In this document: positions 25,359 through 38,781 of the stretch, in pieces
Layout: each line of letters opens with the position of its first letter
How positions within the stretch are numbered: the first letter of the stretch is position 1
Assembly (NCBI GenBank): GCA_964202895.1
Contig: CAXNJM010000002.1
Location: 1-64,000, forward strand
From: Rickettsiales bacterium UBA1997
Lineage (GTDB): Bacteria > Pseudomonadota > Alphaproteobacteria > Rickettsiales > UBA1997
Direction: 5' to 3'
Length of the DNA stretch: 64,000 nt
The notes under the pieces: generated by a model
Told to the model about the DNA's origin: nothing
The model's input: the letters and a program-made list of their open reading frames with translations, nothing else
The model's database searches: none
Program-made: the position numbers and the translations under genes

Positions 25359-26377
25359 ATAAAACAAAAACACCAACACCGGCCATGAAAACAGAAATCG
25401 AAAAACCACAAATTTCAATTTATCAACCTCTTGGCGACGGCCAAAAAATTCGCGTTAGAATTGAAGATGAAAATGTTTGGCTCACTCAAAAATTAATCGC
25501 CGAGCTTTTCAAAATCAGCATTCCAACGGTTAATGAACATTTTAAAAACATTTTCGAAGAGCAAGAATTGACAGAAAATTCAGTTATTAGGAATTTCCTA
25601 ATAACTGCCAAAGACGGTAAAAATTACGACACCAAATATTACAACCTCGATGCAATATTGGCAGTTGGCTATCGCGTGCGCTCATCTCAAGGCGTGCAGT
25701 TTCGAAAATGGGCAACAGAAAGATTACGAGAATATCTAATCAAAGGCTTCACTATGGACGACGAGCTCTTAAAACAAGGTGGCGGTCGCTCACGCTATTT
25801 TGAAGAATTATTGCAGAGAATTCGCGACATCCGAAGCTCTGAGAGAATGTTCTACCAAAAAATCACCGACATTTACGCCTCAAGCATTGATTACAAACTA
25901 GATTCAGAGTTAACCCAAAAATTCTTCGCCACTGTGCAAAATAAAATGCACTTTGCCGTTCATGGCAAAACCGCCGCAGAAATTATCAACAGCCGTGCCA
26001 ATGCTAGCAAGCCATTGATGGGTTTAACTAGTTTTAAAAACGACTACATCACCGAAGGCGACACCAAAATTGCCAAAAATTATTTAACCGAAGACGAGAT
26101 AAAACAGCTCAATTTAATTGTGTCGCTCTACCTCGATTTTGCCGAGTTGCAAGCGAGTTCAGGAAAGTTGATGAAGATGCAAGATTGGATAAAAAAGCTC
26201 GATGAATTTTTGACAATTTCCGATAAAAATCTTTTGCAATCAGCGGAAAATATCAGTGCCAAAGATGCGGAAATTAAGGCGGAAGAAGAATTTGAAAAAT
26301 ACCGCCAAAATCAGGATAAAAATTATGTTTCTGATTTTGATAAAGAGATGAAGAAGATTTTGAAGGAGGTAGCGTGA
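25349..26377 (+). CDS. rhuM: RhuM-family protein embedded in the hsd operon
   Basis: 342 aa; VWLTQKLIAELFKISIPTVNEHFKNIFEE...YNLDAILAVGYRVRS characteristic of RhuM. Overlaps the hsdM stop and the hsdS start. Confidence 0.75.
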   Translation: MPLNKTKTPTPAMKTEIEKPQISIYQPLGDGQKIRVRIEDENVWLTQKLIAELFKISIPTVNEHFKNIFEEQELTENSVIRNFLITAKDGKNYDTKYYNLDAILAVGYRVRSSQGVQFRKWATERLREYLIKGFTMDDELLKQGGGRSRYFEELLQRIRDIRSSERMFYQKITDIYASSIDYKLDSELTQKFFATVQNKMHFAVHGKTAAEIINSRANASKPLMGLTSFKNDYITEGDTKIAKNYLTEDEIKQLNLIVSLYLDFAELQASSGKLMKMQDWIKKLDEFLTISDKNLLQSAENISAKDAEIKAEEEFEKYRQNQDKNYVSDFDKEMKKILKEVA

Positions 26378-27660
26378 TGAAGGGGTGGAGTAAGCGATCA
26401 ATAGGTGACATTGCAAAAGTTACTTCGAGTAAGCGTATTTTTCTTAGCGATTATGTTGAATTCGGAATTCCTTTTTGGAGATCTAAAGAGGTAATAGAGC
26501 AATTTCATGGGAAAAATGTTTCAACGGAGCTGTTCATTGCCAAAGAAAAATATAATGAAATAAAAGCAAAATTTGGCGTTCCAAACAAAGGAGACATTCT
26601 ATTAACCAGCGTTGGCACTGTTGGGGTTCCACATCTCGTTAGAAATGATTCACCATTTTATTTTAAAGATGGAAATCTGACTTGGGTCAAAGATATTATT
26701 GAAGAAGTAGAGCCTTATTACATTTATCTTTGGCTTTCGTCCAATGTTGGGCAAAAAGAGATCCAAAATAATCTTATAGGTTCGTCCCAAAAAGCGCTTA
26801 CGATTGATTCTTTAAAAAAAATAAAAATCCCACTCCCGCCACTCCCACTTCAAAAGAAAATTGCGGGGATTTTATCGGCTTATGATGACTTGATCGAAAA
26901 CAATTTAAGGGCACTCAAGTTGCTGGAAGAAATGGCACAAATCACCTACGAAGAATGGTTCGTGCGCCTCCGCTTCCCCGGCCACGCCACAACCCCAATC
27001 AATCCCACAACTGGCTTGCCTGAGGGGTGGAAGAAAGTTAAACTACGAGAAGTCCTGAAACTAAATTATGGTAAAGCTTTAAAAGCAGATACTCGTATTC
27101 AAGGCAGTATTCCTGTTTATGGATCGTCAGGAATAGTTGGGATGCATAATTTTGCTTTAGTTGATGGGGTGGGAATAATCGTAGGGCGCAAAGGTAATGT
27201 CGGAAGTGTTTTTTGGTCACATGACAGCTTTTATCCAATAGACACCGTCTATTTTGTAACCTCTTTGCATGAACTGCATTTTCTTTACTACGCTCTCAGA
27301 AATTCTAAATTTGATAATAGCGATGCCGCCGTTCCAGGACTTAATCGTGATGCTGCGTATGCAGTTGAAATAACTCTGCCTCCAAAAAATATTGAAAAGC
27401 ATTTTGCTGATTTGGTGGAGCAGAATTTTTTAACCATTCAATTATTTGAAGAGCAAAACCAACGCCTTCGCGAAGCTCGTGATATCTTACTTCCACGCCT
27501 AATGACGGGAGTCATTGATGTTGAAAAATATCCCGCCGTCGTCATGCCGTTGCAAAACGGCACCCAGAAAGAGGTAGGGCTGGGTCCCGACTTTCGTCGG
27601 GATGACGGTAAGGGTCGAGATGACGGAACTAAAAATAATAACAATGAGGTAAAGCTATGA
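26374..27660 (+). CDS. hsdS: Type I R-M specificity subunit with RPE-encoded C-terminal tail
   Basis: 428 aa. Two TRDs. Central conserved LPPLPLQKKIAGILSAYDDLIENN. The C-terminal 35 aa (VMPLQNGTQKEVGLGPDFRRDDGKGRDDG...) are encoded by the RPE at 27533-27625. Confidence 0.85.
   Translation: MMKGWSKRSIGDIAKVTSSKRIFLSDYVEFGIPFWRSKEVIEQFHGKNVSTELFIAKEKYNEIKAKFGVPNKGDILLTSVGTVGVPHLVRNDSPFYFKDGNLTWVKDIIEEVEPYYIYLWLSSNVGQKEIQNNLIGSSQKALTIDSLKKIKIPLPPLPLQKKIAGILSAYDDLIENNLRALKLLEEMAQITYEEWFVRLRFPGHATTPINPTTGLPEGWKKVKLREVLKLNYGKALKADTRIQGSIPVYGSSGIVGMHNFALVDGVGIIVGRKGNVGSVFWSHDSFYPIDTVYFVTSLHELHFLYYALRNSKFDNSDAAVPGLNRDAAYAVEITLPPKNIEKHFADLVEQNFLTIQLFEEQNQRLREARDILLPRLMTGVIDVEKYPAVVMPLQNGTQKEVGLGPDFRRDDGKGRDDGTKNNNNEVKL
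27533..27625. repeat. RPE-like element inserted in frame at the hsdS 3' end
   Basis: cgtcatgccgttgcaaaacggcacccagaaagag...gggtcccgactttcgtcgggatgacgg. Confidence 0.7.
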
Positions 27661-31885: not shown

Positions 31886-32293
31886 ATGAACAGAGAATTA
31901 AAAGAATCAGAATTTTTATTATATAACTCAGATAACGGAGATGTTAAAATTGAGGTATTTTTAAAAGATGAAACAGTTTGGCTCACACAAAAGAAGATGG
32001 CTGAGTTGTTTGATGTTGATAGAACGGCAATTACCAAGCATCTAAATAATATCTTTGAAGAAGGAGAGTTAAGGAAAAACTCAACTAGTGCAAAAATTGC
32101 ACTAGTTCAAAAAGAAGGAAACAGAGAAGTTTCGCGAGAGCTAGAATTTTACAACCTAGATGCCATTATTGCCGTTGGTTATAGGGTTAATTCTAAAAGA
32201 GCGACAAATTTTAGAATTTGGGCAACTCGTCATGCCGTTGAAAAACGGCACCCAGAAAGAGTTGGGGCTGGATCCCGACTTTCGTCGGGATGA
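31886..32293 (+). pseudogene. RhuM-family gene fragment truncated by an RPE
   Basis: The N-terminal 112 aa are homologous to the rhuM copy at 25349 (VWLTQKKMAELF...YNLDAIIAVGYRVNS...RIWAT). The frame then runs into RPE sequence. Confidence 0.6.
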
Positions 32294-33009: not shown

Positions 33010-33630
33010 ATGAAAAATATTAAAAATTTGCCGAACTTATTGACAATGTTTCGTATTGCGATAATTCCAATATTAGTAGCCTCATTTTATATTCCGGGGC
33101 TTACTGCTCATTTAGTGGTTGCTTCTTTATTTGCGGTTGCTTGCATTACTGATTATTTCGACGGTTATTTTGCTCGCTCAATGAAGATGCAGTCAAATTT
33201 TGGTAAATGTCTCGACCCAATTGCCGATAAATTGTTGGTGGCAGTTGCGATTGTTATGTTGGTAAATTTCAACAGCCATAATCCATGGATTCTATTCCCC
33301 GGTTTGATAATAATTTGCCGTGAAATTTTAGTTTCTGGGCTTAGAGAATTTTTGGCGGAGTTTCATCTTAATGTTCCCGTTTCAAAACTTGCCAAATATA
33401 AAACTATGGTGCAAATGGTTGCAATTACTGGCTTGCTACTCGGGGAAAAGGGCTCAGACTATACAGTGCAATATCTCATCGGTAATTGGATGGAAATGGA
33501 TATCAAAAATATCATTACTAATGTTATCATTAATTTAGCAAAATTCTTATTTTGCATGGCCTCGTTATTAACCGTGGTTACTGGCTATCGCTATTGGCGA
33601 ATTGGGCAAATTGGTTTTACAAAAATATAG
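33010..33630 (+). CDS. pgsA: CDP-diacylglycerol--glycerol-3-phosphate 3-phosphatidyltransferase (CDP-alcohol phosphatidyltransferase family)
   Basis: 206 aa; NLLTMFRIAIIP...DYFDGYFAR...G...LDPIADK signature. Confidence 0.8.
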   Translation: MKNIKNLPNLLTMFRIAIIPILVASFYIPGLTAHLVVASLFAVACITDYFDGYFARSMKMQSNFGKCLDPIADKLLVAVAIVMLVNFNSHNPWILFPGLIIICREILVSGLREFLAEFHLNVPVSKLAKYKTMVQMVAITGLLLGEKGSDYTVQYLIGNWMEMDIKNIITNVIINLAKFLFCMASLLTVVTGYRYWRIGQIGFTKI

Positions 33631-33681: not shown

Positions 33682-35031
33682 ATGCCTAAGGAAGAAAAAC
33701 AAAATTCTAATTTTTATCCTCAACCCAATCAAAACCTTGATCTTGCAAATATAGAAAAGGAAATTCTTAAATTTTGGCAAGAAAATCAAGTTTTTGAAAA
33801 ATCGATAGAAATTAGAAATTTTGATGAAAATCACGAAGAAGATATAGTCTCCCCCGTTGAAGAAAGCTGTAAATTAAACAATCATTATCATTGCAATCAT
33901 CTCAATTCTAGCAATGATAATGCTCGCAATGAATTTGTATTTTACGATGGCCCGCCTTTTGCCAATGGTCTACCGCATTATGGGCATCTACTAACTGGTT
34001 TTATCAAAGATTTATTCGCTCGCTATCAAACTATGAAGGGCAAAAAAGTTGAAAGAAAATTCGGTTGGGATACCCACGGCCTGCCAGTTGAAATGGAAAC
34101 CGAGAAAGAGCTTACCGCCAAAGAGGGAAGGGCGATTTCTGGGCAAATTGCCATTCAAGAATATGGAATTGAAAAATTTAATCAAGCTTGTCAAAGTTCA
34201 GTAATGAAATATGCCGATAAATGGGAGGAATATGTCACCCGTCAAGGAAGGTTCGTTGATTTTAAAGATAGCTACAAAACGATGGATGTTTCTTATATGG
34301 AATCAGTTATTTGGGCTTTTAAAGAGCTTTATAATAAAGGTTTAATCTATGAAAAGCTAAGAGTGGTGCCTTATTCTTGGGCTTGCCAAACTCCGCTTTC
34401 AAACTTCGAAACCAGAATGGATAATGCTTACCGCCAAAAAGAAAGCAAGGCAATCACGGTAAAGTTCAATATTGCTCCTGCTAGCTATTCGGCATTGCTT
34501 AAAAAAATGGAAAATTGCAATGAGCAAATAAAGGCAGAAATATTCAATGCAAATTGTCAGATTAGCTTTTTAGTATGGACTACCACCCCCTGGACTCTCC
34601 CTTCTAACCTTGCACTAGCGGTTGGTAAAAATATTAATTACACAATTCTTGCCAGTAATGTAATCAATGCAATCAATGACAATAAAAGGCAATTTTTAAT
34701 TATTGCCAATAAATTAACTGGTAAATATTCTAAAGAGCTAGAGGGGTTTGAGCCAATATTATCAATAGCTGGAGCCGATTTACTAGGTTTAAAATATCAA
34801 CCGTTATTTCCTTATTTTGTTAATCATCCTAAGCTTATTGCTTGCGATAAAGTATTTTCAGTGCTTAGTGGCGATTTCGTCTCAACTGAAGACGGAACGG
34901 GGATAGTTCACCTTGCTCCCGCCTTTGGCGAAGACGATCAAATTATTTGCGAAGAAAACGGAGTTCCTACAATATGCCCTGTCAATGAAGGCGGAAAATT
35001 TACCAACGAACTTTTCGATATTGAATATTAG
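33682..35031 (+). pseudogene. ileS: Isoleucyl-tRNA synthetase, N-terminal 449-codon fragment (truncated)
   Basis: Class I aaRS HIGH motif PPFANGLPHYGHLLTG plus the connective peptide region. Stops at ...GKFTNELFDIEY, about 650 codons short of a full IleS. No continuation in any frame. Confidence 0.65.
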
Positions 35032-35217
35032 TGATATTGTAAAATTGCAATTATTTGCCCCACCGCAACTTCTTTGCAGTGGTTGCAAGTGGTAAGGATT
35101 ATTGAAAATAGCGATACATTGTTAAAAATAGATTGTGTTAGATTTGATAAAGCTTTTATTGGTGAAGATTTATATCATAATATATTGCGAGATAAAATAA
35201 TAATTTACAAAAAATTT

Positions 35218-35619
35218 ATGCAACAAAATAATCATAATATTTTTGACAGTTTAGACAATGCTATTTCTCGTTTTAAAGAATTGCTAGAGCATAAAGATAT
35301 AGATAATATTGATTATATGAGAGATGCTTCAATACAAAGATTTGAATTTGTTATTGAGCTATTCTGGAAGGTCTTAAAAAAAATATTATCATATGAAAAA
35401 ATAGAATCAACAACCCCTAGAGATGTTATCAACAAAGCCTTTCAGTATAAATTAATCAATGATGAAGAGGTTTGGCTTTCTATGCTTGATGATAGAAATA
35501 ACACTTCTCATGCTTATAATGAAGATAGTGCAAAGCTAATATTTATAAGAATCAAGCGATATTTACCAATATTTGAATCTAGTTATAATAATTTACAGCA
35601 ATATAAAAAATTATTATAG
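35218..35619 (+). CDS. HEPN-domain protein, HI0074 family (nucleotidyltransferase substrate-binding protein-like toxin)
   Basis: IFDSLDNAISRFKELLE...ASIQRFEFVIELFWKVLKKIL...DDRNNTSHAY (Rx4H HEPN motif). The ORF track extends to 35074; the N-terminal 48 aa may be a decayed MNT remnant. Confidence 0.7.
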   Translation: MQQNNHNIFDSLDNAISRFKELLEHKDIDNIDYMRDASIQRFEFVIELFWKVLKKILSYEKIESTTPRDVINKAFQYKLINDEEVWLSMLDDRNNTSHAYNEDSAKLIFIRIKRYLPIFESSYNNLQQYKKLL

Positions 35620-35639
35620 AAACCCCTCATTCACTACCC

Positions 35640-35995
35640 CCGCAAGAAAGTTGCAGGAACCAGAAGGAAAAGAAGCTGGGTCCCGACTTTCGTCGGGATG
35701 ACGAAGAAATGAAGCCCCAGAAAGAAGGCAACAACGGGCTTCAGCCCCTTGTGGTGAAGTTATAATTCTCCAGCAATCAACGACAAGGGGTTGAAACCCC
35801 TTGTTGCCTTTAGAATCTTGGGGGTTAAAACCCCTTGTTGCCTTTAGTAATAGAGTTCGAAGCCAGCTCACTCGTCATGCCGTTGCAAAACGGCACCCAG
35901 AAAGAGTTATGAGCTGGGTCCCGACTTTCGTCGGGATGACGGTAAAGGTCGGGGACGGCAGGGGTCGGGATGAGTGATGACGGAAACTCAATACT
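35640..35995. repeat. Cluster of RPE-like elements containing a 27 bp direct repeat
   Basis: gggtcccgactttcgtcgggatgacg occurs twice. The cluster contains ggggtt(g/a)aaaccccttgttgcctttag at 35787-35813 and at 35821-35847. Confidence 0.7.
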
Positions 35996-36006
35996 CGTTG
36001 CTTTTA

Positions 36007-37029
36007 TTATGTAGTCTGAGGATTATTTTTAAGAAATTGACATATTTCTATGGCTCCATAAGTTATAATTGCATTTGCTCCAGCTCTTTTGATGGCAATT
36101 AAGCTTTCATAATAACTATTGATAAAGTTAAGAATATTGTGTTTTTCAGCAAATTTCAGCATAGCAAATTCTCCGCTAACTTGATAAGCAAAAATTGGAA
36201 TCGGAAAGCTTCTTCTACTATTGGCAATGATATCAAGATAAGGCAGGGCTGGCTTGATTATTATTGCATCGGCACCTTCTTCAATATCGAAGGCAACTTC
36301 TCTTAAAGCTTCGCCACTATTGTGGAAATCCATCTGATAGGTTTTTTTATTTCCTTGCTTTAGATTGTTGCTTGAACCAACTGCATCGCGGAATGGGCCA
36401 TAAAAATTTGATGCATATTTTGCACTATAAGAAATAATGCCAACATTTTGAAAATTATTATTATCAAGAAATTTTCTTATCGCCGTAATTCTGCCATCCA
36501 TCATATCGGATGGTGCCACCATATCGCAACCTGCTTTTGCGCAAGTTAGGGCTTGTTTTTCTAGATAATGAATGGTCTCATCATTTATAATATTGCCATT
36601 TTCATCAATTATACCATCATGACCGCTTGCAGTATAAGGGTCAAGAGCCACATCGCAAATTATTAAAATATTTTTAAATTGACTTTTTATTGCTTTAATT
36701 GTTCTGCAAATCAAATTATTTGAATTACTGCTTTCTGAGGCTTGAATATCTTTTAAGGTGTTGTCAATTACTGGAAAGAGCATTATCGCTTTTATGCCTA
36801 AATTGCATGCTTCTTCAATAATTTTTAATAAATTGTCAATCGAATAGCGAAAAACATCGGGAATAGTGCTGATTTCCTCTTTTATTTGAGTTCCTTCGCA
36901 AACGAATAATGGTAAGATTAAGTCATTTGCGGTGATGCTTGTTTCTGCAACTAGGCTTCTTATTTCTTGGTTTTGCCTGTTTCTTCTTAATCGTGTTTCG
37001 GGGAATTTTCCTAAAAATTGATAATTCAT
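36007..37029 (-). CDS. hemB: Porphobilinogen synthase (delta-aminolevulinic acid dehydratase)
   Basis: 340 aa; PETRLRRNRQNQEIRSLVAET...LPLFV N-terminus; active-site Lys region. Confidence 0.9.
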   Translation of the reverse strand: MNYQFLGKFPETRLRRNRQNQEIRSLVAETSITANDLILPLFVCEGTQIKEEISTIPDVFRYSIDNLLKIIEEACNLGIKAIMLFPVIDNTLKDIQASESSNSNNLICRTIKAIKSQFKNILIICDVALDPYTASGHDGIIDENGNIINDETIHYLEKQALTCAKAGCDMVAPSDMMDGRITAIRKFLDNNNFQNVGIISYSAKYASNFYGPFRDAVGSSNNLKQGNKKTYQMDFHNSGEALREVAFDIEEGADAIIIKPALPYLDIIANSRRSFPIPIFAYQVSGEFAMLKFAEKHNILNFINSYYESLIAIKRAGANAIITYGAIEICQFLKNNPQTT

Positions 37030-37032
37030 ACT

Positions 37033-38781
37033 TTATTCGATGAAGTGAATATAAACCTCGGTTGCTGGTCTTTTGCCCATGATATCTTCAAAAATTTTAA
37101 TAACTCTTGAGCGAGTTGATTTTTCAAGCTCGTTAACGATTTTTTTGCTATCTATTTTGCCTTTTTTCTTTTTAAGGAAATCGATATTAAATAATTGTTT
37201 TTTCTGTGATCCAGAATCTCTGATTAGTTCTCTAGATTTATTATTGACAATGTTAGTTACTTCTCTTTCAAGGTATTGCAGGGTTTCTCTGTCGTTTTTT
37301 AAGTCAAAAGAGCCAATACAATTTATTTTTGGTTTATTGATAATTTTGAGTGAAATGTCGATTGCCATTGAGATTATGACAATTCCAGTTTCCTGAAGTT
37401 TTTTTCTTTCTCTTAAAACATCGCTCTGCATATAGAGTAGTTGCTTGCCGTCAACTGCAAAATAGCCAGATTTAACATAGCCAACTTTTTGACATTCTTC
37501 TCTTGATATTTTTACCGCTAGGCCATTTTCTATTTGAAGAACTTTTTCAACTCCGCAATCTCTAGCAATTTCGCTATGAGCTTTGGTGTGCAAAAATTCA
37601 CCGTGAACAGGAATGGCGATTTTTGGTTGTGCCAATTGATACATTTCTCTTAATTCATCTTGCGAGGGGTGCCCTGAAACATGAACAAAATGATCTTTTT
37701 CGGTCATTACATCGATCTGCCTTTTTGCTAGAGCATCGAATAGTTCAAAAATCTTTTTTTCATTACCAGGAATGATTTTAGATGAAAATATCATTAAATC
37801 ATTTTTATTAAAACGAATAGTCGGATGATTATCGGTGGCTATTTTTCTTGCAGAAGCAAGTAATTCCCCTTGACAACCAGTGCAGATGATCAGGATTTCA
37901 TTTTTAGAATAGCCTTTAATTTGCTTATCGGATATAAATTCAAAATTTTCATCAAAATAACCGCTTCTTTTTCCCACTTCGCAGATTCTTTGTAAAGAAT
38001 AGCCAGCTAATACTACTTTTCTTCCCACTTCTTTGGCAATTTTGGCGATGGTATAAATTCTGGCAATATTTGAAGCAAATGTGCTGACTCCAACATAGCC
38101 AGTTCTGCCTATAATTAGCTCTTTTAAAGATTGGTAAAGTTCTCCTTCTGAACGAGAATGCCCTGCGGATAATGCATTGGTTGAGTCGCAGATAACGGCA
38201 AGAATTTCGTTATTATCGCCCAATTCTTTGATTCTTTTTTTATCTGATATTTCTCCTACTACTGGTTCGGGGTCGAATTTCCAATCTCCGGTGTGAAGAA
38301 TGTTGCCTTTTTCGGTTTTTATTATCAATGCTTTCATCTCAGGAACTGAGTGAGTCAGCCCAATAAATTCAATGGTAAACGGGTTTAACTTTAATTCTAT
38401 TTTAGGGTCGATGATATGAATTGGAACAACTTTATCTAACTTATATTCTGCAAGTTTAGATTTCAAAAAGTTGGCAGTTAATAGCGAGCAATATACGGGA
38501 GCGTTTAGTTCTTCCCATAAATATTGCACTGCGCCAAGGTGATCTTCGTGAATATGGGTTAAAATTATGCCGATAAGATCTTTTTTGTGAGCCTTGATGA
38601 AGGAAATATCTGCGGTCATCATATCAACACCGGGGATATTGCTGGCAAAACCTACTCCAAGGTCAACCATTAGCCATTTACCATTTAAGTGATAAAGATT
38701 GACATTCATTCCTATTTCATTGGCACCACCAAGTGCTATGAAAAGGAGATCATCCTTGTGTTTTTTTAAATTTAAATCCAT
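37033..38781 (-). CDS. rnj: Ribonuclease J
   Basis: 582 aa; metallo-beta-lactamase HIHEDHLG, beta-CASP and C-terminal domains. Confidence 0.85.
   Translation of the reverse strand: MDLNLKKHKDDLLFIALGGANEIGMNVNLYHLNGKWLMVDLGVGFASNIPGVDMMTADISFIKAHKKDLIGIILTHIHEDHLGAVQYLWEELNAPVYCSLLTANFLKSKLAEYKLDKVVPIHIIDPKIELKLNPFTIEFIGLTHSVPEMKALIIKTEKGNILHTGDWKFDPEPVVGEISDKKRIKELGDNNEILAVICDSTNALSAGHSRSEGELYQSLKELIIGRTGYVGVSTFASNIARIYTIAKIAKEVGRKVVLAGYSLQRICEVGKRSGYFDENFEFISDKQIKGYSKNEILIICTGCQGELLASARKIATDNHPTIRFNKNDLMIFSSKIIPGNEKKIFELFDALAKRQIDVMTEKDHFVHVSGHPSQDELREMYQLAQPKIAIPVHGEFLHTKAHSEIARDCGVEKVLQIENGLAVKISREECQKVGYVKSGYFAVDGKQLLYMQSDVLRERKKLQETGIVIISMAIDISLKIINKPKINCIGSFDLKNDRETLQYLEREVTNIVNNKSRELIRDSGSQKKQLFNIDFLKKKKGKIDSKKIVNELEKSTRSRVIKIFEDIMGKRPATEVYIHFIE

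What the first reader, a model, noticed from the sequence alone, without database searches (positions are those of the whole stretch)
33682..35995. ileS cut off at codon 449, followed by a solo HEPN (HI0074-type) gene and an RPE cluster
The IleS N-terminus (HIGH motif intact) ends abruptly at ...GKFTNELFDIEY. No downstream frame continues the synthetase; the KMSKS and anticodon-binding regions are absent from this window. An imperfect hairpin (ccaccgcaa/ttgcagtgg) lies immediately 3' of the stop. A HEPN toxin-type gene with the Rx4H motif follows. Its 48-codon upstream extension could be a decayed MNT antitoxin. Next comes a 350 bp block of RPE modules containing a 27 bp direct repeat. Either ileS is a pseudogene copy, or an essential gene has been disrupted by insertion of a HEPN/MNT module. 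The second case would require a full copy elsewhere.
Basis: partly seen in the sequence, partly recalled or inferred. Interest (0 to 1): 0.55.

Follow-up and report, generated by a model that had tools for sequence, protein, structure and literature searches.

The report
Piece of a split isoleucyl-tRNA synthetase
The "cut-off" ileS is probably not a dead or freshly broken gene: it looks like the first of three separately encoded pieces of isoleucyl-tRNA synthetase, an arrangement shared by a group of uncultured freshwater Rickettsiales, while the toxin gene and repeats beside it are later, unrelated additions.

Summary
Its reading of ileS (pseudogene, or a gene broken by a HEPN/MNT insertion) does not hold.

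- **The end point is conserved.** The 449-codon ORF stops at the same IleRS position in at least eight relatives (55-100% identity). Three independent assemblies agree. dN/dS is 0.066, close to neighbouring pgsA.
- **Matching pieces exist in relatives.** Stand-alone "M" genes (435-664 aa, with KMSKS, often with an inserted GNAT domain) start exactly where the N piece stops. They all stop at a second conserved point inside the anticodon-binding domain. Stand-alone "C" genes (about 260-280 aa, DUF5915) start exactly there.
- **The pieces are unlinked.** N and M lie on different contigs of the same MAG (N piece 93% identical to the window's). M and C are also under purifying selection.
- **Both break points are insertion sites.** In relatives with a continuous gene, a DUF559 endonuclease cassette with terminal inverted repeats sits in frame at these points.
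- **The neighbours are secondary.** HEPN is a true HI0074-type gene. Its upstream extension is an MNT remnant left by a 149-bp deletion. The repeat block varies between strains.

Not shown: M and C in this genome, absence of a second ileS, and assembly or activity of the pieces.

The parts
33682..35031 (+). ileS-N: the N piece of a split type-2 isoleucyl-tRNA synthetase. It holds the first half of the Rossmann fold (HIGH at 33976-33987) and most of the CP1 editing domain.
   Evidence: Family matches. The same end point is seen in eight 90%-identity clusters. dN/dS is 0.066 against L009. The piece ends at about residue 367 of yeast IleRS (7d5c) and about 354 of T. thermophilus 1ile. In an AlphaFold model of the continuous relative P0006, the break point is a coil inside the confidently folded editing domain.
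35047..35217 (+). Remnant of an MNT (minimal nucleotidyltransferase) gene: only the C-terminal half survives, in frame with HEPN. The hairpin arms at 35060-35068 and 35074-35082 lie inside it.
   Evidence: L009 ORF 5347..6078 (243 aa) matches Polbeta/NTP_transf_2 at residues 21-109 and NTase_sub_bind at residues 118-238. The window lacks 149 bp around 35039-35044, a gap bordered by GATATTG in L009. The remnant on its own gives no Pfam hit.
35218..35619 (+). HEPN gene of the HI0074 / NTase_sub_bind type, 133 aa from the ATG (181 aa from the TTG at 35074). The Rx4H motif RNNTSH is at 35494-35511.
   Evidence: It is also present downstream of ileS-N in L005 (98.5% aa) and L009 (95% aa), but not in L001/L016 or L002.
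35620..36003 (.). Cluster of RPE-like dispersed palindromic repeats. The 30-nt direct repeats at 35674-35703 and 35912-35941 bracket a 238-bp block. Inside it are the 27-nt repeats at 35787-35813 and 35821-35847. A roughly 100-bp two-hairpin unit lies at about 35866-35975.
   Evidence: Repeats and copy counts. Strain L005 has a single copy of the 30-mer and lacks the 238 bp. The same unit occurs at 27540-27640 inside hsdS. The GGGGTTnAAACCCC-TTGTTGCCTTT motifs score as terminator-like.
33010..33630 (+). pgsA (CDP-alcohol phosphatidyltransferase), the conserved upstream neighbour of ileS-N.
   Evidence: Synteny is kept in L005 and L009, and in L001/L016 with two extra genes in between.
36007..37029 (-). 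hemB (ALAD), a convergent downstream neighbour. It shows that ileS does not continue here.

Best explanation
ORF 33682..35031 is most likely the N piece of an isoleucyl-tRNA synthetase that, in this lineage of uncultured freshwater Rickettsiales, is encoded as three unlinked genes.

**The three pieces**
- **N (about 450 aa):** first half of the Rossmann fold with HIGH, plus most of the CP1 editing domain.
- **M (about 655 aa):** the last helix and strands of CP1, the second half of the Rossmann fold with KMSKS, an inserted GNAT domain, and the first part of the helical anticodon-binding domain.
- **C (about 270 aa):** the rest of the anticodon-binding domain plus the DUF5915 C-terminal domain.

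**How it would work (inferred).** The three polypeptides are translated separately and reassemble without covalent joining. Each break lies inside a domain, so fragment complementation would supply the interface.

**How it arose (inferred, weaker).** Both break points are sites where relatives carry in-frame insertions of a small DUF559 (Vsr-like) endonuclease cassette with terminal inverted repeats. Such invasions probably created or permitted the breaks, and the pieces later dispersed.

**The neighbours.** The MNT-HEPN module was added later, downstream of an end that already existed. In this strain a 149-bp deletion has removed MNT's catalytic half. The palindromic repeats then accumulated between HEPN and hemB.

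**Shown:** the conserved end and start points, unlinked N and M in the same MAGs, purifying selection on all three pieces, and insertions at both sites.

**Inferred:** M and C genes in this very genome, physical assembly, enzyme activity, and endonuclease-driven fission.
For: 1. **Conserved end point.**
   - N-piece proteins P0001-P0005 and P0010-P0012 all stop 0-4 residues after ...GKFT.E.FD...
   - They are only 53-87% identical to one another.
   - Cluster 1 holds 22 members of 446-449 aa.
   - The stops lie in mid-contig, followed by unrelated genes.
2. **Selection.**

| Gene | dN/dS | Detail |
|---|---|---|
| ileS-N | 0.066 | window vs L009; 85 synonymous and 29 nonsynonymous differences; dS 0.415 |
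| pgsA | 0.037 | same pair |
| M piece | 0.066-0.099 | between related loci |
| C piece | 0.052-0.098 | between related loci |

3. **Complementary pieces start at the break points.**
   - Eight M-piece clusters begin M..LSLKNR|QVFETNDDIIKYLK, exactly where N ends.
   - All M pieces, and the continuous N+M proteins P0138, P0142 and P0413, end at ...LPFTTE.IW.GL. That is Anticodon_1 position about 90 of 148 and TIGR00392 position 791 of 861. The stop codons are real.
   - 69 of the 120 best hits to the IleRS tail are stand-alone proteins of 232-285 aa that start no more than 16 residues before the SVHL motif.
   - C piece P0365 covers Anticodon_1 positions 94-145 plus DUF5915. It maps to residues 770-1023 of P. 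megaterium IleRS2.
4. **Same genome, different loci.**
   - MAG 49632_E25 has N on contig 44 (93% aa to the window) and M on contig 14.
   - Sample ERZ27280300 has N on a 60-kb contig and M on a 122-kb contig.
   - M keeps the synteny ubiB-M-2OG oxygenase. C keeps purM-C.
5. **The ancestor was continuous.** The closest representative at the 50%-identity level is a 1071-aa N+M protein, 67% identical.
6. **The break points tolerate insertions.**
   - Site 1 carries in-frame insertions of 24-190 aa (P0007, P0008/P0142, P0148, P0138).
   - DUF559 cassettes sit in frame at site 1 (L006) and site 2 (L088). L088 has perfect 38-nt inverted repeats.
7. **No decayed remains.** The window holds no trace of M or C.
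Against: - M and C were not found in the window's own genome, because only this 64-kb window is available. The closest link is a MAG whose N piece is 93% identical. An M-piece cluster member, P0390, from an NCBI contig of 1,225,155 bp could not be retrieved.
- No MAG was shown to hold all three pieces together.
- A second, intact ileS (for example a type-1 enzyme) in these genomes cannot be excluded with these tools.
- Assembly and activity of the pieces are untested.
- The search for homologous proteins listed no protein longer than about 800 aa, so its hit lists are biased towards fragments. This was corrected only in part by the HMMER representative search.
- No DUF559 inverted-repeat remnant was seen at the window's break point on inspection of the sequence. 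The endonuclease origin therefore rests on relatives.
- The neighbour-joining tree is crude. It cannot decide between one origin and several origins of split 1.
Confidence: 0.78

Rival explanations
1. Pseudogene copy: a decaying 5' fragment of ileS, with an intact ileS elsewhere doing the work.
For: The ORF covers only positions 4-366 of 861 in the ileS model and scores below the full-length cut-off (388.5 bits against 621.4). The rest of the genome could not be inspected.
Against: - dN/dS is 0.066 with 85 synonymous differences.
- An intact ORF of about 450 codons persists across lineages down to 55% identity, always ending at the same residue.
- The HIGH and editing motifs are intact.
- Complementary M and C pieces exist as conserved ORFs under selection.
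- There are no frameshifts and no decayed 3' remains.
Confidence: 0.06
2. Recent disruption: an MNT-HEPN toxin-antitoxin module inserted into ileS and cut it at codon 449.
For: The module starts a few nucleotides after the ileS-N stop in L009. Toxin-antitoxin modules are mobile (general knowledge).
Against: - The same break point occurs where no MNT-HEPN is present: L001/L016 (dnaE follows), L002 (GT61 gene, then the M piece), and the P0004/P0138 lineage (a DUF559 cassette).
- No ileS 3' part lies beyond the module. hemB follows on the other strand.
- dS of 0.415 between the window and L009 shows that the arrangement is old.
Confidence: 0.03
3. The N piece survives for a function of its own, for example as a free-standing trans-editing factor. 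IleRS activity would come from another enzyme, and the M and C pieces of relatives would be unrelated remnants.
For: Free-standing editing domains such as AlaX and YbaK are known (general knowledge). The N piece holds most of the CP1 editing domain.
Against: - The Rossmann half with HIGH is as conserved as the editing part.
- The editing fold is itself cut. Its last helix and strands lie on M.
- M (with KMSKS) and C are conserved with matching boundaries and low dN/dS.
Confidence: 0.07
4. The pieces are joined after transcription or translation, by split inteins or by RNA trans-splicing, to give a single chain.
For: Fractured genes with split inteins and Vsr-like endonucleases are known from metagenomes (PMC2677866).
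Against: - N ends and M begins within 0-8 residues of the continuous alignment, so there is no room for intein halves of 35-100 aa.
- The same holds at split 2.
- M and C have their own ATG, and C has a GGAG upstream.
- No Rfam intron family reached its gathering score anywhere in the window.
Confidence: 0.03
5. Assembly or sequencing artefact at 35031.
For: None.
Against: The same stop and the same downstream genes appear in independent assemblies: L005 (ENA ERZ28613035), L009 (JAJTDS01) and 22 cluster members from NCBI, JGI, ENA and Logan.
Confidence: 0.01

Closest known systems
Naturally split aminoacyl-tRNA synthetases: Aquifex aeolicus LeuRS alpha/beta, Nanoarchaeum equitans split AlaRS, crenarchaeal ThrRS-cat/ThrRS-ed (from my own knowledge, not retrieved here)
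   Same: A class I or class II synthetase encoded by separate genes whose products must associate. The break lies in or next to the inserted CP1 editing module.
   Different: This one is IleRS, and in three pieces rather than two. Both breaks lie inside domains. The pieces are unlinked and sit in different syntenic contexts. One piece carries a GNAT insertion. No split IleRS turned up in the paper searches, but that library is incomplete.
Experimentally split E. coli IleRS (Shiba and Schimmel 1992, 'Functional assembly of a randomly cleaved protein'; from my own knowledge)
   Same: IleRS fragments cut within the CP1 region reassemble into an active enzyme in vivo. This is the mechanistic precedent for noncovalent complementation.
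   Different: That was an engineered type-1 enzyme in two fragments. Here the arrangement is natural, evolutionarily conserved, in a type-2 enzyme, and has a second break in the anticodon-binding domain.
Genes in pieces made by free-standing homing endonucleases: phage Aeh1 nrdA, phage 25 gp43, and 'fractured genes' with Vsr-like endonucleases (PMC2677866)
   Same: An essential gene is cut at a site occupied in relatives by an endonuclease ORF of the Vsr-like superfamily, and the pieces remain functional.
   Different: - There are no split inteins.
- The host is a bacterial chromosome, not a phage.
- The pieces are dispersed around the genome rather than kept in one operon.
- In some relatives the DUF559 cassette is read through in frame as part of IleRS.
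- A causal role in this lineage is inferred only.
HI0073/HI0074-type MNT-HEPN modules (MntA/HepT class of toxin-antitoxin systems; from my own knowledge)
   Same: The HEPN protein passes the PF08780 and TIGR01987 cut-offs and has Rx4H. A cognate MNT lies directly upstream in relative L009.
   Different: In the window MNT has lost its catalytic half. In L009 MNT and HEPN form one 243-aa ORF instead of two genes. No PADLOC HEPN model matched. Toxicity is untested.
Rickettsia palindromic elements (RPE)
   Same: Short dispersed palindromic repeats in a Rickettsiales genome. They lie between genes and also in frame inside ORFs (hsdS 3' end), and their copy number differs between strains.
   Different: Sequence homology to the described RPE-1 to RPE-8 families was not tested, so 'RPE-like' is the safe label.

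Membership tests
Isoleucyl-tRNA synthetase (TIGR00392 ileS; class Ia, type 2) | Best family match is ileS, with the HIGH signature in the first half of the Rossmann fold | tested here: met
   TIGR00392 E 6.6e-116, positions 4-366 of 861. HYGH at aa 99-102.
Isoleucyl-tRNA synthetase (TIGR00392 ileS; class Ia, type 2) | Whole-protein score above the curated cut-off (a complete enzyme in one chain) | tested here: not met
   388.5 bits against a cut-off of 621.4. The ORF is one fragment of the enzyme.
Isoleucyl-tRNA synthetase (TIGR00392 ileS; class Ia, type 2) | KMSKS loop and anticodon-binding domain | tested here: not met
   Absent from the window. Present on the separate M pieces (KLSKRL; Anticodon_1 positions 1-92) and C pieces (Anticodon_1 positions 94-145 plus DUF5915) of relatives.
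Isoleucyl-tRNA synthetase (TIGR00392 ileS; class Ia, type 2) | CP1 editing-domain motifs | tested here: met
   WTTTPWT and GTGIVH..FGEDD are present. The region aligns to the editing domains of 7d5c and 1ile.
Naturally split (multi-gene) aminoacyl-tRNA synthetase | Complementary pieces encoded as separate genes with abutting boundaries in the same genome | tested here: inconclusive
   Met in relatives: MAG 49632_E25 has N and M on two contigs, and ERZ27280300 has N and M on two contigs. Boundaries abut. Not testable for the window's own genome. No genome was shown to hold all three pieces.
Naturally split (multi-gene) aminoacyl-tRNA synthetase | Each piece is under purifying selection | tested here: met
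   dN/dS is 0.066 for N, 0.066-0.099 for M and 0.052-0.098 for C.
Naturally split (multi-gene) aminoacyl-tRNA synthetase | The pieces associate and aminoacylate tRNA-Ile | not testable with these tools
   Needs biochemistry or genetic complementation.
Pseudogene | Relaxed selection, frameshifts or internal stops, variable truncation points | tested here: not met
   Low dN/dS, intact ORFs and an identical end point across lineages 55-100% identical.
Fractured gene with split intein | Intein N and C fragments at the ends of the host pieces | tested here: not met
   Only 0-8 extra residues at each junction.
HEPN, HI0074 / NTase_sub_bind family | Profile match above the curated cut-offs | tested here: met
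   PF08780 120.7 bits (cut-off 31.8). TIGR01987 112.4 bits (cut-off 55.8).
HEPN, HI0074 / NTase_sub_bind family | Rx4-6H motif | tested here: met
   RNNTSH at aa 93-98, nt 35494-35511.
MNT-HEPN two-component module | An intact cognate MNT with the GS...DxD nucleotidyltransferase motif next to HEPN | tested here: not met
   The window lacks 149 bp that include the motif, and the remnant gives no Pfam hit. The motif is intact in L009 (GSRARGDNSNRSDIDI).
Rickettsia palindromic elements | Dispersed palindromic repeats, some of them in frame inside ORFs | tested here: met
   Six copies of the 27-nt core against 0 expected. One unit lies in frame in the hsdS 3' end. Strains differ in copy number.
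Rickettsia palindromic elements | Sequence homology to the described RPE-1 to RPE-8 consensus sequences | not tested
   No reference RPE sequences were available in the tools.

The most novel reading that the evidence does not exclude
A lineage of freshwater Rickettsiales runs translation with a heterotrimeric IleRS whose three pieces are encoded at three unlinked loci (pgsA-N, ubiB-M, purM-C). Both fission points would be scars of a miniature DUF559 (Vsr-like) endonuclease element with terminal inverted repeats. In sister lineages that element still sits in frame inside the enzyme. This would be a cellular, chromosomal example of an essential gene in pieces made by a selfish endonuclease cassette. 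It would also be the first natural split IleRS, and it carries a GNAT domain inserted in the catalytic core.
Probability: 0.4. Interest if true: 0.75.

Novelty: new variant of a known kind. Interest (0 to 1): 0.6.

Why it matters
- **Annotation.** Automatic pipelines label these ORFs "class I tRNA ligase family protein, partial", "DUF5915 domain-containing protein" or pseudogene. That makes these genomes appear to lack IleRS and distorts completeness and auxotrophy calls for Rickettsiales MAGs.
- **Enzymology.** A natural three-piece IleRS would be the evolutionary counterpart of Schimmel's fragment-complementation experiments. It identifies two permissive sites in a drug target (mupirocin, reveromycin). 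It also offers a system to study how editing, catalytic and anticodon-binding modules communicate across noncovalent interfaces.
- **Evolution.** The DUF559 cassettes sitting in frame at both break points give a testable route from endonuclease invasion to gene fission in a cellular genome.
- **Limits.** The neighbouring HEPN gene, MNT remnant and repeat block are ordinary accessory features of a variable region.

Tried and rejected
- **Exact-sequence look-ups.** The window's N piece, its HEPN protein, and M-piece P0390 (which may or may not come from this genome) were not on record. The window's genome could therefore not be named or searched. The single genome-contig scan returned an N locus 93% identical, not 100%.
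- **Search for the third piece.** tblastn found it neither in the window nor in the loci held at that point, L001-L005.
- **Hit-list bias.** I first read the absence of full-length hits as biological. It is a bias of the word-indexed search. The HMMER representative search showed that the nearest 50%-level representative is a continuous 1071-aa N+M protein.
- **NF040702 (ileS_w_GNAT).** Considered as the family, but scores are far below its cut-off (150-315 bits against 1999). Not a member.
- **Insertions versus the window's repeats.** I tested whether the short in-frame insertions at split 1 in relatives (for example NHPSDANASPSLFFKEG...) belong to the window's repeat family. Only a weak, non-significant resemblance was found.
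- **Hairpin as terminator.** Rejected.
- **Rfam.** Only two tRNAs reached the gathering score.
- **PADLOC.** No HEPN model matched the window's HEPN protein.
- **Literature.** Searches for a described split IleRS or for DUF5915 found nothing relevant.
- **Structure model.** The AlphaFold model of P0006 is of only moderate overall quality (mean pLDDT 68). I used only its confident editing-domain part. No fold search was run.
Full report
**1. What is in the window**

The window is AT-rich, about 32% G+C. Its closest relatives among the loci fetched are MAGs labelled Rickettsiales.

| Coordinates | Strand | Feature |
|---|---|---|
| 33010..33630 | + | pgsA |
| 33682..35031 | + | 449-codon ileS fragment |
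| 35074/35218..35619 | + | HEPN ORF |
| 35620..36003 | . | G+C-rich repeat block |
| 36007..37029 | - | hemB |
| 37033..38781 | - | RNase J |

- The ileS fragment matches TIGR00392 positions 4-366 of 861, with an intact HYGH and intact editing-domain motifs.
- It ends ...GKFTNELFDIEY, followed by TAG TGA.
- tblastn with continuous relatives, with IleRS C-terminal tails and with the 1071-aa P0413 finds no other IleRS segment in the 64 kb, not even a decayed one.

**2. The end point is conserved**

- The best protein hits are not full-length enzymes. They are proteins of about 420-470 aa that stop within 0-4 residues of the same alignment column: P0001-P0005 and P0010-P0012.
- These are only 53-87% identical to one another.
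- The window's own 90% cluster has 22 members of 446 or 449 aa from NCBI, JGI, ENA and Logan.
- Contexts show true stops in mid-contig:
  - L005 (99% identical strain): pgsA, ileS-N, HEPN, hemB, rnj.
  - L009 (MAG 49632_E25, 93% aa): pgsA, ileS-N, MNT-HEPN.
  - L001/L016 (60% aa): ileS-N is followed by dnaE on the other strand.
  - L002 (59% aa): ileS-N overlaps a glycosyltransferase gene.
- Between the window and L009 there are 85 synonymous and 29 nonsynonymous differences. That gives dS 0.415 and dN/dS 0.066, similar to pgsA at 0.037.
- This rules out an assembly artefact. It argues strongly against a pseudogene or a recent truncation.

**3. The missing parts exist as separate genes**

- I searched with the region downstream of the break, taken from a continuous relative. 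Eight clusters came back whose proteins start with a Met and 1-8 residues, then QVFETNDDIIKYLK, which is exactly where the N piece stops.
  - Three are about 435 aa long.
  - Five are 634-664 aa long and carry a GNAT domain (PF13302) inserted at residues about 100-250.
- P0164 lies on a 122-kb contig of ENA sample ERZ27280300. The N piece P0005 lies on a 60-kb contig of the same sample.
- In MAG 49632_E25, N and M are on contigs 44 and 14.
- The M gene sits between ubiB and a 2OG-Fe(II) oxygenase gene in L004 and L007.

**4. There is a second break**

- Every M piece ends at ...LPFTTE.IW.GL. So do the proteins that run continuously through the first break: P0138 (1002 aa), P0142 (845 aa) and P0413 (1071 aa).
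- That point is Anticodon_1 position about 90 of 148, TIGR00392 position 791 of 861 and MupA position 764 of 1024. The stop codons are real.
- Ordinary type-2 IleRS continues for about 260 more residues.
- A profile of that tail found 69 stand-alone proteins among the best 120 hits. They are 232-285 aa long and start MI(N/D)R.IS(V/I)HLQDFP..., at most 16 residues before the SVHL motif. Many are on long contigs, one of 2.1 Mb.
- P0365 (21 cluster members) covers Anticodon_1 positions 94-145 plus DUF5915. It aligns to residues 770-1023 of P. megaterium IleRS2.
- The C gene follows purM in L022, where the two ORFs overlap by 4 nt, and in L086/L087. In L022 it has a GGAG upstream.
- dN/dS is 0.066-0.099 for M and 0.052-0.098 for C.

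**5. Structure**

- The N piece ends at about residue 367 of yeast IleRS (7d5c) and about 354 of T. thermophilus IleRS (1ile).
- In an AlphaFold model of the continuous relative P0006, overall quality is moderate, but the editing domain has pLDDT of about 90. The break falls in a coil just before helix 447-461.
- M therefore contributes the last helix and strands of the CP1 editing fold.
- The second break likewise cuts the helical anticodon-binding domain.
- Both breaks lie inside domains. This is what fragment complementation needs, and it fits the classical finding that E. coli IleRS cleaved in CP1 reassembles in vivo (Shiba and Schimmel 1992, from my own knowledge).

**6. Origin of the breaks**

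- The nearest representative at the 50%-identity level is a continuous N+M protein (P0413, 67% identical, with GNAT). Continuity is therefore ancestral, and split 1 is derived within the clade.
- A rough neighbour-joining tree puts the window in an all-split clade (P0001, P0002, P0003, P0005). Split forms also appear in another clade.
- Site 1 is an insertion hot spot:
  - In-frame insertions of 24-62 aa (P0007, P0008/P0142, P0148).
  - A GT61 gene between N and M (L002).
  - A DUF559 (PF04480, Vsr-like) domain in frame in P0138, whose 90%-cluster mate P0004 stops inside the insertion.
- Site 2 carries the same kind of DUF559 insertion:
  - It is fused to the C piece in P0283 and P0330.
  - In L088 it is read through in frame in a continuous ileS.
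- The cassette has perfect 38-nt terminal inverted repeats in L088 and imperfect ones in L006. They encode the flanking PSP..GEG.GEG peptides.
- Vsr-like free-standing endonucleases that fracture genes are known from metagenomes and phages (PMC2677866).
- I infer, at moderate confidence, that such invasions created or permitted the fissions. No repeat remnant is visible at the window's own break point.

**7. The neighbours**

- L009 has a single 243-aa ORF a few nucleotides after the ileS-N stop. It joins an MNT domain (Polbeta/NTP_transf_2, GSRARGDNSNRSDIDI) to the HEPN domain.
- The window lacks 149 bp of it, a gap bordered by GATATTG in L009. What is left is the frame ...AIICPTATSLQWLQVV...KKF, running into the HEPN ATG.
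- The "hairpin" is that coding sequence. It has no T-run.
- L005 has a 100-N scaffold gap at this spot, so it cannot show whether it shares the deletion.
- HEPN passes the PF08780 and TIGR01987 cut-offs and has RNNTSH.
- The module is absent from the more distant split lineages, so it is a later arrival.
- The repeat block holds 238 bp that L005 lacks, bracketed by perfect 30-nt direct repeats.
- The 27-nt core occurs six times in the window. One copy lies in frame inside the hsdS 3' end.

**8. Verdict**

- The ORF is best read as one subunit gene of a split, probably heterotrimeric IleRS.
- Still open: M and C in this very genome, absence of another ileS, and physical assembly.
- I found no description of a natural split IleRS in the searchable literature, but that library is incomplete. 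I class the finding as a new variant of a known kind (naturally split synthetases, genes in pieces).

Noticed in passing
L088:1386-1811 and L006:4461-4889 (relatives, not the window): A DUF559 (Vsr-like) endonuclease domain lies in a cassette of about 426 bp. L088 has perfect 38-nt terminal inverted repeats; L006 has imperfect ones. The cassette is inserted in frame into ileS at the two positions where other lineages have the gene split. The inverted repeats encode the flanking PSP..GEG.GEG peptides.
   Followed up: partly
window:27540-27640: One RPE-like unit (hairpin GCCGTTGCAAAACGGC plus hairpin GTCCCGACTTTCGTCGGGAT) lies in frame inside the 3' end of hsdS (ORF 26374..27660). It adds about 30 residues to the protein. 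Another copy forms the 3' end of ORF 31886..32293.
   Followed up: partly
window:23784-30907: A type I restriction-modification system (HsdM, a RhuM-family gene, HsdS, HsdR) with about 40% G+C against about 32% elsewhere. The near-identical strain L005 has a different restriction-modification set at the same place. Together with tRNA-Asn, tRNA-Thr and the MNT-HEPN module, this looks like a variable defence island.
   Followed up: partly
window:33810-33940 (ileS-N residues about 45-85): A clade-specific Cys/His-rich insertion (D.VSPV..C.L..H..C.H) lies between the N-terminal helix and the first Rossmann strand. It is conserved in the split clade and its sister lineages and could bind a metal.
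   Followed up: no
M pieces of relatives (P0162 residues about 100-250; also P0413): A GNAT acetyltransferase domain (PF13302) is inserted in the catalytic core of IleRS, between ...VELN.. and INWIP. It is present in both split and continuous forms. Scores against NCBIfam ileS_w_GNAT are far below that model's cut-off.
   Followed up: partly
L002:11262-12900 (FLOH01001352.1, GCA_900089805.1): Here N and M flank a Glyco_transf_61 gene with overlapping stops and starts. The M piece also has an in-frame TAA followed two codons later by an ATG. This could be a further split or a nonsense mutation.
   Followed up: partly
L009:5347-6078: MNT and HEPN are fused in one 243-aa ORF with no stop between them, unlike the two-gene HI0073/HI0074 arrangement.
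   Followed up: no
L022:3012-4813; L086 and L087:2898-4810: The C piece of IleRS lies directly downstream of purM in lineages from lakes and groundwater. In L022 the two ORFs overlap by 4 nt, which suggests co-transcription with a purine-synthesis gene.
   Followed up: no
record titles of L008, L016 and L022: Several lake MAGs that carry these pieces are deposited under the organism name 'Rickettsia typhi'. Given their divergence (N piece about 52% identical to a Rickettsia IleRS) and their freshwater origin, this is clearly a mislabel.
   Followed up: no
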